Source: the human T2T-CHM13v2.0 reference genome, Homo sapiens
Strand: one strand, 5' to 3'
Assembly (NCBI RefSeq): GCF_009914755.1
Contig: NC_060932.1
DNA length: 64,000 nucleotides
The notes beneath the pieces were generated by a model. It searched no databases and was not told the DNA's origin. It saw nothing but the letters and a program-made list of their open reading frames with translations. The position numbers were made by a program, and so were the translations under genes. Shown here in pieces: positions 27,601 to 32,952 of the stretch (positions are counted from its first letter, which is position 1; each line of letters begins with the position of its first letter).

Positions 27601-27956
27601 TATTATAATAGAAGAATGTATGAATTGCTAGGAGGGATGCTTTTTGCAGGAGTCAGACAATGAAGGTCTCATTGAAGACATGCCTCCAAGTTATTACTTG
27701 GTGTCCACCTGAAAAAAAGCCCTCACATCCTGTCTAAACTAGTTGAGTGATCTTGGATAAATTACTCCACCCTATTTAGCCTCATTTTTTTTTCATTTGA
27801 AAATGAGAGAGATAGTGGAAATGCCCCCTAAAACATTCCTCTAACTTAGAGCCTCTATTTTATTCTAATCCTGCCGGCTTGTAACTGGACCCTTCAATCA
27901 CTTGCTCCTGACTTGCCAAGACTTTCTGATTCCCGTTACAGCATGATGGACAGCTG

Positions 27957-27981
27957 ACCATTTGTCCCTGGCCCCTGGCAA
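27957..27981 (+). repeat. 25-bp exact dispersed direct repeat, copy 1 (copy 2 at 31567-31591)
   Basis: accatttgtccctggcccctggcaa identical at both positions. Confidence 0.95.
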
Positions 27982-29115
27982 TGAAGTAGACTCTCCTGGT
28001 CTCAAACCTTACCTGACCACAGCGTGAGCTGACGCAGCCTTGATGATGACAGAAAGCAATTCTTGTCACTCTTGGATGCCCCTCTGCTCTTTTCACCCAC
28101 ACCATGACTGCAGCCAGGGGCAAATGTCACATTTGCACTTCTGAGACAGACAAACATCACTTAGAACTTTTACGTGTTATGATTTTAGAGGCAGCCTGCT
28201 GTGGCAGACGCTGCTGGCTGAGAACCGCGCCTTGTGCAGCCTCTGCGGCCGGATGGTGGAGTTGGAATCTTGGCTCCTTCACTTCCTCACTATGTTAACA
28301 CTTCTGCAGTTCAGTTTGCTTATCTGTAAATGATTATGAATCATACTTACCCCAAGAGTTTGTTATGAGGATCTAGTGGACTAATACACATAAAGTGTTT
28401 AGAAGCATGAAAATAGTGGCTTATTTTTACAACAGCCAACCCAACAAGTGTTTTGCTCATCCTTCTTGCCTGTTGGAAGTGCCCAATTCCAAGATAGGGA
28501 CAGAGATGATAGCTTCACTTTTCCCAGTCCCTCTTGCAGTTCAAGATGGCTTTTGAATCCAGTTGTGTCTGATAAAACATAAAGGGAAGTTTACTGGGGG
28601 GTTTCTGAGAAACAATTTTTTCCCCTTACATGAAGAGAGAAAATAAGGTGTCTTCCTCCCTATCTCTTTTTTTCTTTCTTCCAGGTATTTTCACATGCAA
28701 TTGTAAAGCTTGCCTATGCTGCAGCCACCCTGTGACCTAGGTGGGAAATATAGCGGCACTTTGAAGATGACAGGACAGAAAGATGAAAAGCAGTGTCTTC
28801 AATGACATCAATGAGCTTCTGACCCCACCCTGCAACTGCCTACCTATGGCTAGTCTTGTTCTGTGAGACAATAACAATAATAAAATCCAATTGTTTGAGG
28901 CACTTTTATTGGGGTATTCAGTTTCTTGCACCTGAAAGCACCCTAACTGATAACTTAATCCCCCAAAACCTCCTGCCACAAAGGTTTGTGATAGTGCATC
29001 TCTGATGGCAACTGTACATATCATTGGAAACTATCGGCACAGGACTTCAGAGACATCATTACGTTGCTTAAATGTTTCACATATGCCTTTGGCGAGGATG
29101 AATTCTATGCAATAG

Positions 29116-30470
29116 TGTGTCCAGAATTTGGTGGGTTCTTGGTCTCACTGACTAAGAATGAAGCCACGGACCCTCACAGTGAGTGTTACATTTCTTGAAG
29201 ACGGTGCGTCCAGAGTTTGTTCCTTCTGATGTTCGGACACGTTCAGAGTTTCTTCCTTCTGATGGGTTCGTAGTCTTGCTGGCCTCAGGAGTGAAGCTGC
29301 AGACCTTTGCAGTGAGTGTTACAGCTCATAAAGGCAATGCAAACCCAAAGAGTGAGCAGCAGCAAGATTTATTGTAAAGGACAAAAGAACAAAACTTCCA
29401 CACAATTGAAAGAGAGCAGAGCCGGTAGCCACTGCTGGCTCTGGCAGCCTGCTTTTATTCCCTTATCTGGCCCCACCCTCATCCTGCTGATTGGTCCATT
29501 TTGCAGAGAGCTGATTGGTCCGTTTTGACAGGGTGCTGATTGGTGCGTTTACAATCCCTGGGCTACACACAAAAGTTCTCTAAGTCCCTACTAGATTAGC
29601 TAGACACAGAGCACTGATTGGTGCGTTTACAAACCTTGATCTAGACTCACGGTGCTGATTGGTGTGTTTACAATCCTTTAGCTAGACATAAAGGTTCTCC
29701 AAGTCCCCACCAGATTACCAAGATACAGAGTGCTGACTGGTGTGTTTTACAAACCTTGAGTTAGACACAAAGTGCTGATTGGTGTATTTACAATCCCTTA
29801 GCTAGACATAAAGGTTCGCCAAGTCCCCACTAGACTAAGGAGCCCAGCTGGCTTCACCTAGTGGATCCTGCACTGGCAGCAGGCGGAGCTGCCCGCCAGT
29901 CTCGCGCGCCCTGCGCCGGCAATCCTCAGCCCTTGGGCGGTGGACGGAACCGGGCGCCGCGGAGCAGGGGGCGGCGCTCGTCGGGGAGGCTCTGGCGTCG
30001 CAGGAGCCCACCGCGGGGGTTGGGAGGAGGCTCGGGCATGGCGGGCTGCAGTTCCCCAGCCCTGCGCCGCGGGGAGGCAGCTGAGGCCTGGCGAGAATTC
30101 GAGCGCAGTGCCGGCACTGCTGGGGAACCCGGCGCACCCTCCGCAGCTGCTAGCCCGGGTGCTAAGCCCCTCACTGCCCGGGCCGGCCGGCGGCTCCGAG
30201 TGCGGGGCCCGCGGGGCCCACGCCCACCCGGAACTCGCGCTGGCCCGCGAGCGCCGCGCGCAGCCCAGGTTCCCGCCCGCGCCACTCCCTCCACACCTCC
30301 CCACAAGCAGAGGGAGCTGGCTCCCGCATTGGCCAGCCCAGAGAGGGGCCCCCAGAGCGCAGTGTCGGGCTGAAGGGCTTCTCGAGCATGCCCAGAGCGG
30401 ACGCCGAGGCCGAGGAGGCGCTGAGAGCGAGCAAGGGCTGCGAGGGCTGCCAGCATGCTGTCACCTCTCA
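29116..30470 (-). mobile_element. Solo LTR12 (ERV9/HERV9 LTR, 12C/D/E-type), 1355 bp
   Basis: Minus strand starts TGAGAGGTGACAGC and ends ...GGACACA; TSD ATAG at 29112-29115 and 30471-30474; CpG-rich U3 ~29860-30450; tandem CCAAT repeats ~29485-29785; GATA site 29461-29468; AATAAAA TATA-like box 29453-29459; polyA signal 29368-29373. Confidence 0.93.
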
Positions 30471-30556
30471 ATAGGAGATCAGTTAATGCATACTGAAGGA
30501 AGGCTTGTTGGAGAAGAATCCTCTCCTGAACCCTGTGGAGACTCTAGAATCCTGCG
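30440..30556 (+). other. SLC30A8: Probable distal non-coding first exon of SLC30A8 (start approximate)
   Basis: Donor GCG|GTAAAT at 30556/30557 beside the CpG-rich LTR12 end; recalled annotation has long SLC30A8 isoforms starting just downstream of AARD; TSS not visible from sequence. Confidence 0.5.
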
Positions 30557-31119
30557 GTAAATGTTCTAATTATTGAAAACATTTCCCAATGCTCACCCTC
30601 ATTAAGGATGTTCTAATGCCTAGGAGACCTACTACCTATCTGATTCTGTCAGAGAAGCCATTTTGTTTTTTGGCAACTGGAAGCAGTGGGGATGAAATAT
30701 TTTCCTAAGGCGTCTCAGGACTGAACTGGCAGCAAAATAGTAAACTGTTTATCAGCTCTTAAATTTTTATACCAGGGAGGTTTAGCAAACTGTCAGAAAA
30801 CAGCCTGAATTGAATTTCTATAATTACTGCTTCCAAATTGGTACTGAGGGTACTAGTTGCTCTAAACTTCTGCAGGATTCAGTCTGGGACTTTTCATGCT
30901 AAGAAATATCTCAAGATTTTAAGGTGGGATTGTCAGGGTCAGAGGACAATGTCCTCTGAAATCCACCAGTATTTTACTGGACTTTACGGTTTACAGTTTA
31001 CCAGGTACCTTACAGTTTACCAACTGCTTTCCAGTTTATAATTTACCAGGTGCTGCCATAGCTGATAGCTCGTTAATCTTACAGTAACCAGCTGAAGTAG
31101 GTGTGCCGTGAGGCTATTG

Positions 31120-31290
31120 AATTTTAAGAAGCATCAAGAAAGCCTGCCTGTCTAACTTTGGAAATATCACCCTCATGCTGTCTTCCCAGGATGTCTCTCT
31201 CCCTAAGTAAGAGATGTTACTTCCTGGAGGGAATGCAGTGTTGGGAATCTGAAGACCCAGCTTTGAGCTGAATTTGCTTTGTGATACCTG
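31120..31290 (+). other. SLC30A8: Probable second distal non-coding 5' exon of SLC30A8 (start approximate)
   Basis: Strong donor CTG|GTGAGT at 31290/31291, inside a MIR-like relic; gene assignment from recalled annotation. Confidence 0.5.
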
Positions 31291-31590
31291 GTGAGTCATT
31301 GATGTCTCTGGGCTTCAATTTTCTCATTTGTAGAAACTTGTAGAGTAAGGCATCGAACTCATAATCATCTTTAAGATTCTTTGGGTTAAGCATGGGCATC
31401 TCCTGCTAATGGTTTTAATTTGAAACAATGTTGTTACCAACTCATTAGTGTGAATTAACCTAGGTGGTGATACCAAAAGGTTGAGCTTTATTTAAAGTGT
31501 GCTTAGTGAGCAATTAAACAAGGGAAGCTTGTTTAAAAAGAAGAGTAGAAAAATACTGAAATTAACACCATTTGTCCCTGGCCCCTGGCA

Positions 31591-32257
31591 AGGATTGCTA
31601 TCTGCTCCTCCTCCCAACCTTCTCTTGGCTATGCTCCAAAACGCCTTCTCTCTTGTAGCACATCCGATGTAAGTTTGCTTCCTATTTACTCCCTTAGCAC
31701 TCAAGTTTCCCCTATGACAGCATCTACCACATGTATCGTAATACCTTATTGAATTATCTGTTCCCCACCCCGCCGTCTAGACTACAAGCAACATGAGAGC
31801 CCAAATCCCATCTTCCAATTTTTTGGTGATTCCTTGTATTTTTATAATTTTGCCTTGGGTTAACTTTATTGAACAGCATGAATCTAACAGTGCAAATTTG
31901 CTCTCTCTTCCTGTCATTCATTCAACATTTTTGTTGTGTCTACGGGGTGCCAGCCACTGTTCTAGGTATGTGTTGAGCATCAGTTTTAAAATAAGCATCT
32001 TTCTGGATGCTGAGCGTAGGACAATAAACCTGAAAAGATGGGATTGGGCTCTCATGTTGCTTGTAGTCTAGATGGCAGGGTGGGGAACAGATAATTCAAT
32101 AAGATATTATGATACATGTGGTAGATGCTGTCTTAGGGGAAAGTTGAGTGCTAAGGGAGTGAATAGGAAGCAAACTTACCTTGGATGTGGTACAAGAGAG
32201 AAGGCGTTTTGGAGCATAGCCAAGAGAAGGTTGGGAGGAGGAGCAGGTAGCAATCCT
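31591..32257. repeat. Long inverted repeat: arms 31591-31814 and 32035-32257, 220-bp spacer
   Basis: Manual alignment gives 11 mismatches plus 1 indel over ~224 bp; also visible as near-identical peptides in ORFs 31492..31704(-) and 32072..32317(+). Confidence 0.97.
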
Positions 32258-32490
32258 AGAGAGAAACAACAGCTCATAGAAGGTGCTAGAGGTGAGCAAA
32301 GTCATCATCTGTATTAGGGAGTAAAGAAAGCTCAATATAGTTGGTGCTTAGAAGAAAGAATGAAGGTGTTAAGAAGTGTGGCTGAAGTGGTTGACAGAGG
32401 TGGACATATCATGACAGGCCTCACAAGCCATGCTTTGGGGTTCAGACTGTATCCTAAGAGCCTGGGTAAACCATTGAAAAATATTTTAAA
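31915..32490 (-). mobile_element. L2 3' relic containing the right arm of the inverted repeat
   Basis: cattcattcaacattt...gtgccagccactgttctagg is the antisense L2 3' end; purine-rich L2-like body continues past the arm. Confidence 0.7.

Positions 32491-32549: not shown

Positions 32550-32952
<403 letters not shown>

What the first reader, a model, noticed from the sequence alone, without database searches (positions are those of the whole stretch)
31567..31591. Exact 25-bp copy of sequence 3.6 kb upstream fused to the inverted-repeat breakpoint
Seen: accatttgtccctggcccctggcaa occurs at 27957-27981 and 31567-31591 with unrelated flanks. Its last base is the first base of the left inverted arm. 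A chance 25-mer match within 64 kb is on the order of 1e-6. Inference: one multi-step template-switching event (FoSTeS/MMBIR or polymerase theta templated insertion) copied 25 nt from upstream, then ~224 nt from the opposite strand downstream. This implies the two sites, now on either side of LTR12, were physically close during repair.
Basis: partly seen in the sequence, partly recalled or inferred. Interest (0 to 1): 0.75.

Follow-up and report, generated by a model that had tools for sequence, protein, structure and literature searches.

The report
Two-template repair scar in SLC30A8 intron
A 248-base patch in a non-coding part of the human SLC30A8 locus was stitched together long ago from two nearby templates, which makes it a tidy but ordinary fossil of error-prone DNA copying.

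Summary
The 25-mer is exact at 27957-27981 and 31567-31591 (0 of 100 shuffles). At up to 2 mismatches these are its only two copies in the 3.1-Gb genome, and its flanks are unrelated. Its last base, 31591, is the first base of a 224-nt inverted copy (31591-31814) of 32035-32257. The two arms match at 212 of 224 columns.

The right arm appears to sit inside an old high-copy repeat that runs through both of its borders. That makes it the template, and the left arm plus the 25-mer the inserted patch.

Best reading, about 0.7: one template-switching repair or replication event wrote 25 nt from 3.6 kb upstream and 224 nt from the opposite strand 220-443 nt downstream. The one readable junction overlaps by 1 nt.

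Not settled:
- Which enzyme did it (MMBIR/FoSTeS or polymerase theta).
- Whether it was one step or two.
- Its order relative to the LTR between the two copies.
- Its age, roughly ape to Old World monkey depth from 11 substitutions.

No primate outgroup genome could be reached, so the decisive test was not run. The mechanism is a known kind of mutation, no function is indicated, and interest is low.

The parts
27957..27981 (+). Upstream copy of the 25-mer and the inferred template. It contains an internal tandem CCCTGGC x2. It lies in an intron of lncRNA LOC105375715, 31 nt from exon 28013-28095.
   Evidence: Exact match. One of only 2 genome hits at up to 2 mismatches. It sits in single-copy context. 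That it is the source is inferred from the fact that the other copy lies on a rearrangement junction.
31567..31591 (+). Downstream copy of the 25-mer, the inferred templated filler at the outer junction of the inverted arm. Its last base, A31591, is shared with the arm as a 1-nt overlap.
31591..31814 (+). Left arm: the derived, reverse-complement copy of 32035-32257.
   Evidence: 212 of 224 columns identical. Only two copies exist in the genome. It is out of context with respect to the old repeat that carries the right arm.
31815..32034 (.). Spacer of 220 nt. From about 31905 rightwards it is the terminal part of an old high-copy interspersed repeat in minus orientation. The origin of 31815-31904 is unknown; it is presumed to be original flank.
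   Evidence: The 20-mer 31947-31966 has 1993 near matches in the genome against 0 for the control. Profile and blastn alignments begin at 31896-31947. No other template for 31815-31916 was found in the window.
32035..32257 (+). Right arm: the parental template. It is embedded in the old repeat, which continues on both sides of it.
   Evidence: 5 of 10 profiles give one envelope from about 31902-31914 across 32034/32035 to 32073-32305. There is a high-posterior block at 32047-32075. The real arm adds 5-15 bits over the anchor alone, and shuffled-arm controls reach the real score in 0, 0, 2, 0 and 1 of 100. Against: the arm alone is not detected by any of 5 profiles.
29116..30470 (+). Context only: a solo LTR of a high-copy family (LTR12-type by recall) lying between the two 25-mer copies. 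It is flanked by a 4-5 nt direct repeat (A)ATAG. SLC30A8 alternative first exon 30388-30556 starts inside it.
   Evidence: Sequence read. 4549 first-look candidates in the genome, with the best full-length copies 75-83% identical. Pairwise distances. Exon coordinates come from the hub's gene table.

Best explanation
Positions 31567-31814 are a 248-nt patch written in one error-prone repair or replication event that used two nearby templates.

Proposed course of events (inferred):
1. A break or stalled fork arose at the site that is now the 31566 / 31815 junction.
2. The free 3' end copied 224 nt from the strand of opposite sense, 220-443 nt to the right (32035-32257). This could have been snap-back on its own resected strand, or a switch to the other strand at a fork. 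It gave the inverted left arm.
3. The end then switched, on a single shared A:T pair, to a template 3.6 kb to the left (about 2.25 kb if the LTR was not yet there). It copied 25 nt there (27957-27981).
4. It rejoined the original duplex.

The same product follows if synthesis ran the other way, with the 25-mer copied first. In the four-point notation for template switches this is a 1-4-3-2 event with an extra direct-orientation template.

The product is a 224-nt inverted repeat with a 220-nt spacer in a non-coding part of the SLC30A8 upstream region. It is probably neutral.

Shown: the structure, the uniqueness, the junction overlap and, moderately, the polarity of the arms.
Inferred: that it was one event, the direction A to B, the order of steps and the pathway.

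The processive 224-nt tract and the kilobase-distant template fit MMBIR/FoSTeS-type synthesis better than typical polymerase theta inserts. The 25-nt piece and the 1-nt priming are also typical of polymerase theta.
For: - Exact 25-mer at two sites only, in both window and genome, with unrelated flanks.
- The end of the 25-mer coincides with the arm boundary, overlapping it by 1 nt. By own arithmetic, a chance coincidence within +/-1 nt of one of the four arm edges is about 4e-4 in a 64-kb window.
- The arms are a unique pair in the genome, with 212 of 224 columns identical. The inverted repeat is therefore a local duplication, not two repeat insertions or a transposon family.
- The right arm is collinear with an old repeat that continues into the spacer and, in one profile, 48 nt past its outer edge. 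The left arm is therefore the copy.
- No filler is left unexplained. The 25-mer and the arm together account for every base between 31566 and 31815, and no third template was found.
- The perfect 25-mer is compatible with the age of the arms. With 12 differences in 224 columns, the chance of 25 unchanged bases is about 0.25 (own arithmetic).
- Literature, passages read:
  - Inverted single-repeat outcomes of class 1-4-3-2 are a majority pattern of template switches in great apes (PMC7954356).
  - Germline multi-part templated insertions copied from several templates are described (PMC8421209).
  - Single-nucleotide priming, reiterated priming and reverse-complement snap-back inserts are described for POLQ (PMC5068794).
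Against: - No outgroup sequence was available, so co-appearance of the two pieces on one branch is untested.
- The 25-mer shows 0 differences while the arms show about 5%. This mildly favours a younger 25-mer, with a likelihood ratio of at most about 4.
- Microhomology can be read at only one of three junctions, and there it is a single base, which is uninformative.
- The polarity evidence is moderate:
  - 5 of 10 profiles stop at 31968.
  - No pairwise blastn alignment crosses 32035, 0 of 20.
  - Only 1 of 20 single-sequence nhmmer alignments crosses it.
  - The arm alone scores nothing with 5 of 5 profiles.
- Sizes and distances lie outside the typical ranges reported:
  - POLQ inserts are mostly under 25 bp, with about 85% primed within 10 bp of the break.
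  - The MMB-TI search criterion is a template within 100 bp.
Confidence: 0.7

Rival explanations
1. Two separate events. An inverted duplication created the left arm first. Later a break at its outer edge was repaired with a 25-nt templated insert from upstream. The reverse order is also possible.
For: The 25-mer is perfect (25 of 25) while the arms differ at 12 of 224 columns. Bases of hairpins or cruciforms can be break-prone (general knowledge), and the strand folds at -273.5 kcal/mol, z -30.
Against: It needs a second rare event landing exactly on the junction base. A 220-nt spacer makes cruciform extrusion unlikely (general knowledge). The chance of 25 unchanged bases at the arms' divergence is about 0.25, so the perfect match is not unusual. 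Multi-part inserts made in one event are documented (PMC8421209).
Confidence: 0.13
2. The direction is reversed. The 25-mer at 31567 is original flank of the arm insertion, and the copy at 27957 is a 25-nt templated insert made from it.
For: Nothing in the sequence marks 27957-27981 as native beyond single-copy context. A weak inverted near-copy of part of the 25-mer lies close by (28113-28126, 13 of 14 bases). It can be read either way.
Against: The copied segment would have to end by chance exactly at the arm boundary. The upstream site shows no other sign of a junction. The downstream copy sits where filler is expected, at a rearrangement junction.
Confidence: 0.07
3. The two 25-mers are a target-site-like duplication flanking a 3.6-kb inserted segment (27982-31566).
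For: They are direct repeats of equal length and orientation, 3610 nt apart.
Against: The interior is a composite of unrelated things: a lncRNA exon, a solo LTR with its own 4-5 nt duplication, and SLC30A8 alternative exons (hub gene table). There is no poly(A) or poly(T) at either inner end. 25 nt is long for known target-site duplications (general knowledge). This reading does not explain the coincidence with the arm edge.
Confidence: 0.02
4. The 25-mer is a chance match or a fragment of a diverged repeat family.
For: The 19-nt core has 121 genome hits at up to 2 mismatches against 11 for a reversed control. These include a recurrent variant that belongs to some repeat family.
Against: Only 2 genome hits for the 25-mer at up to 2 mismatches, and 4 at up to 3. 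In 8 of 8 fetched members of that family, and in the 2 loci with 3 mismatches, similarity to either site stops at about 20-42 nt with no flank homology. The reversed control contains a CpG and is therefore biased low (own reading). 0 of 100 shuffles matched.
Confidence: 0.02

Closest known systems
Short-range template-switch mutations (four-point model; Loytynoja and Goldman; Walker et al., PMC7954356, passages read)
   Same: A stretch of the descendant sequence is the reverse complement of nearby sequence and creates a single inverted repeat. The point order is 1-4-3-2: the insertion site lies to the left, and the template is read backwards from 32257 to 32035.
   Different: The copied tract is 224 nt, against the tens to hundreds of nucleotides of vicinity described there. 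A second template, in direct orientation and 3.6 kb away, contributes 25 nt. The ancestral state is not available here.
MMBIR/FoSTeS templated insertions (MMB-TI; Osia et al., PMC8421209, passages read)
   Same: An inverted copy of a nearby template is inserted. Germline events whose insert is assembled from two or three templates are described. Microhomology at the switch points is expected.
   Different: Their search criterion is a template within 100 bp. Here the templates lie 220-443 nt and 3.6 kb away. Only 1 nt of overlap can be read, and at one junction only.
Polymerase theta-mediated end joining with templated inserts (van Schendel et al., PMC5068794, passages read; Kent et al., PMC4912351, search listing only)
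   Same: Single-nucleotide priming, reiterated priming and dissociation, and in-cis snap-back that gives reverse-complement inserts alongside in-trans direct inserts. The 25-nt piece is of typical size.
   Different: Inserts are reported as mostly under 25 bp, with about 85% primed within 10 bp of the break. A 224-nt tract and a 3.6-kb distant template are atypical.
Inverted duplications at inversion breakpoints from staggered breaks (recalled, no paper read)
   Same: Inverted duplicate copies flank a middle segment.
   Different: That model inverts the middle segment. Here the spacer, the right arm and the right flank stay collinear with one old repeat copy, so nothing on that side was inverted.

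Membership tests
Template-switch mutation (four-point model) | A segment that is the reverse complement of nearby sequence on the same chromosome | tested here: met
   31591-31814 against the reverse complement of 32035-32257: 212 of 224 columns identical. It is the only such pair in the genome.
Template-switch mutation (four-point model) | An ancestral (outgroup) sequence lacks the segment, and the change appears as one cluster on one branch | not testable with these tools
   No primate genome is held. The own-genome search has no relatives (note).
MMBIR/FoSTeS templated insertion | The insert is copied from one or more nearby templates, often inverted, and can be multi-part | tested here: met
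   Two templates account for all 248 nt. Multi-part germline events are described in PMC8421209.
MMBIR/FoSTeS templated insertion | Microhomology at each switch junction | tested here: inconclusive
   There is a 1-nt overlap (A31591) at the 25-mer/arm junction. The other two junctions need the ancestral sequence.
MMBIR/FoSTeS templated insertion | Template within 100 bp of the insertion (operational criterion of MMBSearch) | tested here: not met
   The templates start 220 nt and 3.6 kb from the insertion point. The criterion is quoted.
Polymerase theta templated insert | Short insert (mostly under 25 bp) primed within about 10 bp of the break | tested here: not met
   The 25-nt piece fits by size, but its template is 3.6 kb away. 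The 224-nt piece fits neither criterion.
Interspersed repeat family containing the 25-mer | Many genomic copies whose homology extends into the flanks | tested here: not met
   2 genome hits at up to 2 mismatches. There is no flank homology to any of the 10 fetched near-match loci. The upstream context is single-copy.
DNA transposon with long terminal inverted repeats (for the arm pair) | Other copies of the element in the genome | tested here: not met
   The genome search with 31880-32300 returns only itself and the left arm. That search is not sensitive to old, diverged copies.
Target-site duplication | Direct repeats that bound one mobile element with defined termini | tested here: not met
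   The interior 27982-31566 is a composite with no poly(A) or terminal repeats of its own.

The most novel reading that the evidence does not exclude
The event created, in one step, a 224-bp near-perfect hairpin inside the first intron of the LTR-driven SLC30A8 transcripts. The long double-stranded RNA transcribed from it would be a lineage-specific substrate for ADAR editing or small-RNA production. That would make it a dated example of template switching giving birth to a structured RNA. The structure exists on paper. No known RNA family matches it. No expression or editing data were examined.
Probability: 0.04. Interest if true: 0.5.

Novelty: new member of a known kind. Interest (0 to 1): 0.2.

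Why it matters
It is a clean, fully resolvable fossil of a two-template insertion. One piece is direct and comes from kilobases away. The other is inverted and comes from a few hundred bases away. Such cases show that germline template switching in primates can combine short-range and kilobase-range templates in one scar. They are also useful test cases for aligners and for template-switch detectors that only look within about 100 bp. Beyond that it is ordinary: the site is non-coding, no functional consequence is indicated, and the mechanism class is well described. The practical value of the finding is mostly as a worked example and as a phylogenetic marker for the SLC30A8 upstream region.

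Tried and rejected
- Degenerate homology in the flanks of the two 25-mers: none found.
- A third template for the left part of the spacer (31815-31916) or for the left flank (31400-31566): only chance-level hits. The 13-mer at 31812-31824 / 32614-32626 is at the level expected by chance.
- Repeat-family origin of the 25-mer. A recurrent near-variant of the 19-nt core does belong to a repeat family, but neither site aligns to it beyond the word itself.
- Own-genome DNA search for old copies of the arm repeat: too insensitive, it returned only self hits.
- In-window blastn for the same purpose: nothing.
- Pairwise blastn of 20 genomic copies of the old repeat against the window: 0 of 20 cross the arm border.
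- Arm-only profile search: no hit in 5 of 5 profiles. The polarity argument therefore rests on the gain in score of the continuous alignment.
- Dating the LTR against the arms by non-CpG pairwise distances. The LTR copies are 0.086-0.128 apart and the arms 0.034 apart. Pairwise LTR distance also includes differences between source elements, so the order is not resolved.
- Inversion with staggered breaks, and target-site duplication, were considered and rejected (see rivals and closest known).
- No structure, protein or complex tool was relevant.

Full report
**1. The observation**

- The 25-mer ACCATTTGTCCCTGGCCCCTGGCAA is present exactly at 27957-27981 and 31567-31591 on the + strand. No other window match exists at up to 3 mismatches, and none of 100 dinucleotide shuffles gave two matches.
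- Local alignment of 625 nt around each copy recovers only 28 columns, 27 identical. The reverse-strand comparison gives nothing meaningful.
- An exact-word scan of 31300-32400 against the whole window finds the arm pair and this 25-mer, and otherwise only 13-mers at chance level.
- In the whole 3.1-Gb assembly the 25-mer has 2 hits at up to 2 mismatches, both here. At up to 3 mismatches it has 4, the other two on other chromosomes.

**2. Is the 25-mer part of a repeat family?**

- The 19-nt core gives 121 genome hits at up to 2 mismatches, against 11 for the reversed control.
- The control contains a CpG and is therefore biased low. The core is a GC-rich, common kind of word.
- One variant recurs. 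I fetched eight of its places and the two 3-mismatch places.
- The eight align to one another over 100-400 nt, so they do belong to some repeat family. Neither 25-mer site aligns to any of the ten loci beyond 19-42 nt around the word.
- The upstream context (27830-28110) is single-copy for the genome DNA search. That search only sees fairly close copies.

**3. The inverted repeat**

- Gapped alignment gives 31591-31814 against the reverse complement of 32035-32257: 224 columns, 11 substitutions and one 1-nt indel.
- The ungapped tool reported 237 nt at 91%, because it runs on past the indel.
- The genome holds only these two copies, at 95%. The pair is therefore a local duplication, not two members of a family and not a transposon with long terminal repeats.
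- The spacer is 31815-32034, 220 nt.
- As single-stranded DNA the region folds at -273.5 kcal/mol, against -77.9 +/- 6.5 for shuffles. This simply restates the repeat.
- No Rfam family matches 31567-32257.

**4. Which arm is the original?**

- A 20-mer of the spacer (31947-31966) has 1993 near matches in the genome and 0 in the control. The spacer therefore carries a high-copy interspersed repeat. By recall it looks like the 3' end of LINE-2 in minus orientation. That name comes from no call.
- I fetched 60 of the 100 listed places. They were taken from the top of the list, so this is not a random sample of the 1993.
- Pairwise blastn: all 20 copies tested match around the anchor, starting at 31896-31947, and 0 of 20 reach 32035.
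- Single-sequence nhmmer: 1 of 20 crosses the border, reaching 32146.
- Profiles from 20 copies: 2 of 5 seeds cross it.
- Profiles from 60 copies: 5 of 10 seeds give a single envelope from 31902-31914 to 32073, 32153, 32158, 32200 or 32305. The other 5 stop at 31968, where the window copy has about 30 extra bases.
- The alignment shows a high-posterior block at 32047-32075, inside the right arm. In one profile there is further homology up to 32305, which is 48 nt past the arm's outer edge.
- Against: neither arm alone is detected by any of 5 profiles.
- Quantified: the real arm raises the score over the anchor alone by 5-15 bits (51.9 vs 39.7, 45.9 vs 30.7, 45.9 vs 32.5, 43.2 vs 33.0, 38.2 vs 33.1). 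With the arm shuffled, the real score is reached in 0, 0, 2, 0 and 1 of 100 trials.
- I take this as moderate support that spacer, right arm and right flank are one collinear old repeat copy. The right arm is then the template and the left arm the copy.
- The position of the 25-mer filler at the left arm's outer edge points the same way independently.

**5. Junctions**

- Outer junction. The left product reads ...CTGGCA-A-GGATTGCTA. The upstream source continues with T after that A. The arm template, in reverse complement, is preceded by T. The single A at 31591 therefore belongs to both pieces.
- No base between 31566 and 31815 is left unexplained.
- The other two junctions (31566/31567 and 31814/31815) cannot be scored without the ancestral sequence. 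No microhomology is visible from the templates alone.

**6. Mechanism (inferred)**

- One event with two template switches explains everything.
- One concrete version starts with a break between what are now 31566 and 31815. The right-hand 3' tail (minus strand) snaps back on itself 220 nt behind its end and copies 32035 to 32257.
- Its new terminal T then pairs with A27981 on the resected plus strand of the left side. It copies 25 nt to 27957, and then rejoins at 31566.
- A fork-based version, with the nascent plus strand running left to right, gives the same product.
- In four-point notation the inverted part is a 1-4-3-2 event. That is one of the two majority classes that give single inverted repeats in great apes (PMC7954356, passages).
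- Multi-part germline templated insertions are described (PMC8421209, passages).
- Single-nucleotide priming, reiterated priming and reverse-complement snap-back inserts are described for polymerase theta. There, however, inserts are mostly under 25 bp, and about 85% are primed within 10 bp of the break (PMC5068794, passages).
- The 224-nt tract and the kilobase-distant template therefore lean towards MMBIR/FoSTeS-type synthesis. The sequence cannot decide the pathway.

**7. One event or two, and the direction**

- At the arms' divergence (12 differences in 224 columns), 25 bases stay unchanged with probability about 0.25. The perfect 25-mer is compatible with equal age and only mildly favours a later addition.
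- A later, independent insertion would have to land on the exact junction base.
- A reversed direction, with the downstream copy original, would require a copied segment that ends by chance at the arm edge.
- I put one event with direction upstream to downstream at about 0.7, two events at 0.13 and reversed direction at 0.07.

**8. Age and the LTR**

- All-site divergence of the arms is 11 of 223. Non-CpG divergence is 7 of 213, a JC distance of 0.034.
- Four of the 11 substitutions are CpG in the left arm against TpG or CpA in the right arm.
- Using recalled primate divergences (human-orangutan about 3%, human-macaque about 6%), this suggests an origin around the ape stem. The Poisson range on 7 substitutions is wide, running from great-ape depth to beyond the Old World monkey split. 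Gene conversion between the arms would make it look younger.
- The element at 29116-30470 is a solo LTR of a high-copy family: 4549 first-look candidates, 40 scored, best full-length copies 75-83% identical. It carries a 4-5 nt flanking repeat.
- Its non-CpG distance to six copies is 0.089-0.121. The distances among those six copies are 0.086-0.128. Pairwise distance also contains differences between source elements, so it does not date the insertion.
- A paper reports an LTR12C at the human SLC30A8 promoter that macaque lacks (PMC6324829, passages only; the figure is not held and no coordinates are given). That it is this LTR is my inference, from its position at the alternative first exon.
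- The order of LTR insertion and template switch stays open. The template distance was either 3.6 kb or about 2.25 kb.

**9. Function and novelty**

- The patch lies about 280 nt downstream of the alternative exon 31146-31290 and overlaps no annotated exon (hub gene table).
- I saw nothing pointing to function.
- The mechanism class is well known. This instance does not appear in the two papers that mention SLC30A8 together with LTR12. I ran no other search for it.
- It is a neat worked example, not a surprise.

**10. What is missing**

- The decisive comparison with ape and monkey orthologues could not be run, because no primate genome is reachable with these tools.
- A Dfam annotation would firm up point 4.

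Noticed in passing
window 29116-30470: A solo LTR of a high-copy family (LTR12-type by recall), flanked by the direct repeat (A)ATAG at 29111-29115 and 30470-30474. It holds internal repeats of about 119-120 nt at 29529-29867. The SLC30A8 alternative first exon 30388-30556 starts inside its 3' end, so this transcript looks LTR-driven. A paper reports an LTR12C at the human SLC30A8 promoter that macaque lacks (PMC6324829). Identity with this LTR is not verified.
   Followed up: partly
window 31591-31814 vs 32035-32257: All four CpG-site differences between the arms keep CpG in the left (derived) arm and show TpG or CpA in the right arm. With four sites this is not significant, about 1 in 8 for either direction. 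It could hint at different methylation of the two arms.
   Followed up: no
window 28100-28136: About 130 nt downstream of the upstream 25-mer lies an inverted near-copy of its first part (28113-28126, 13 of 14 bases; 19 of 25 over 28102-26). A small palindrome sits at 28120-28136. This is weak at window level (E 3-9) but locally unexpected. It may be a trace of an older short template switch.
   Followed up: no
window 27966-27979 (and 31576-31589): The 25-mer itself contains a perfect tandem duplication of the 7-mer CCCTGGC.
   Followed up: no
window 32632-32926, minus strand: Two sub-threshold Rfam matches to metazoan SRP RNA (60.6 and 49.2 bits, gathering score 70), with overlapping mir-1268 and mir-3135 matches below threshold. 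This is the usual signature of an Alu element (name recalled), about 375 nt right of the right arm.
   Followed up: no
window 30982-31054: Three to four degenerate direct repeats of a unit of about 19-25 nt (TTACAGTTTACCAGGT-like), just upstream of the SLC30A8 alternative exon 31146-31290 (families D6 and D10).
   Followed up: no
L003-L010 (own genome, several chromosomes): The word CACTTGTCCCTGGCTCCTG marks an interspersed repeat family whose members align to one another over 100-400 nt. The family was not identified and is unrelated to the finding.
   Followed up: partly
window 31968-32034: Compared with profiles of its family, the old repeat copy carries about 30 extra bases here. They include a short hairpin-like GCATC...GATGC. 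This is the reason half of the profiles stop at 31968.
   Followed up: no
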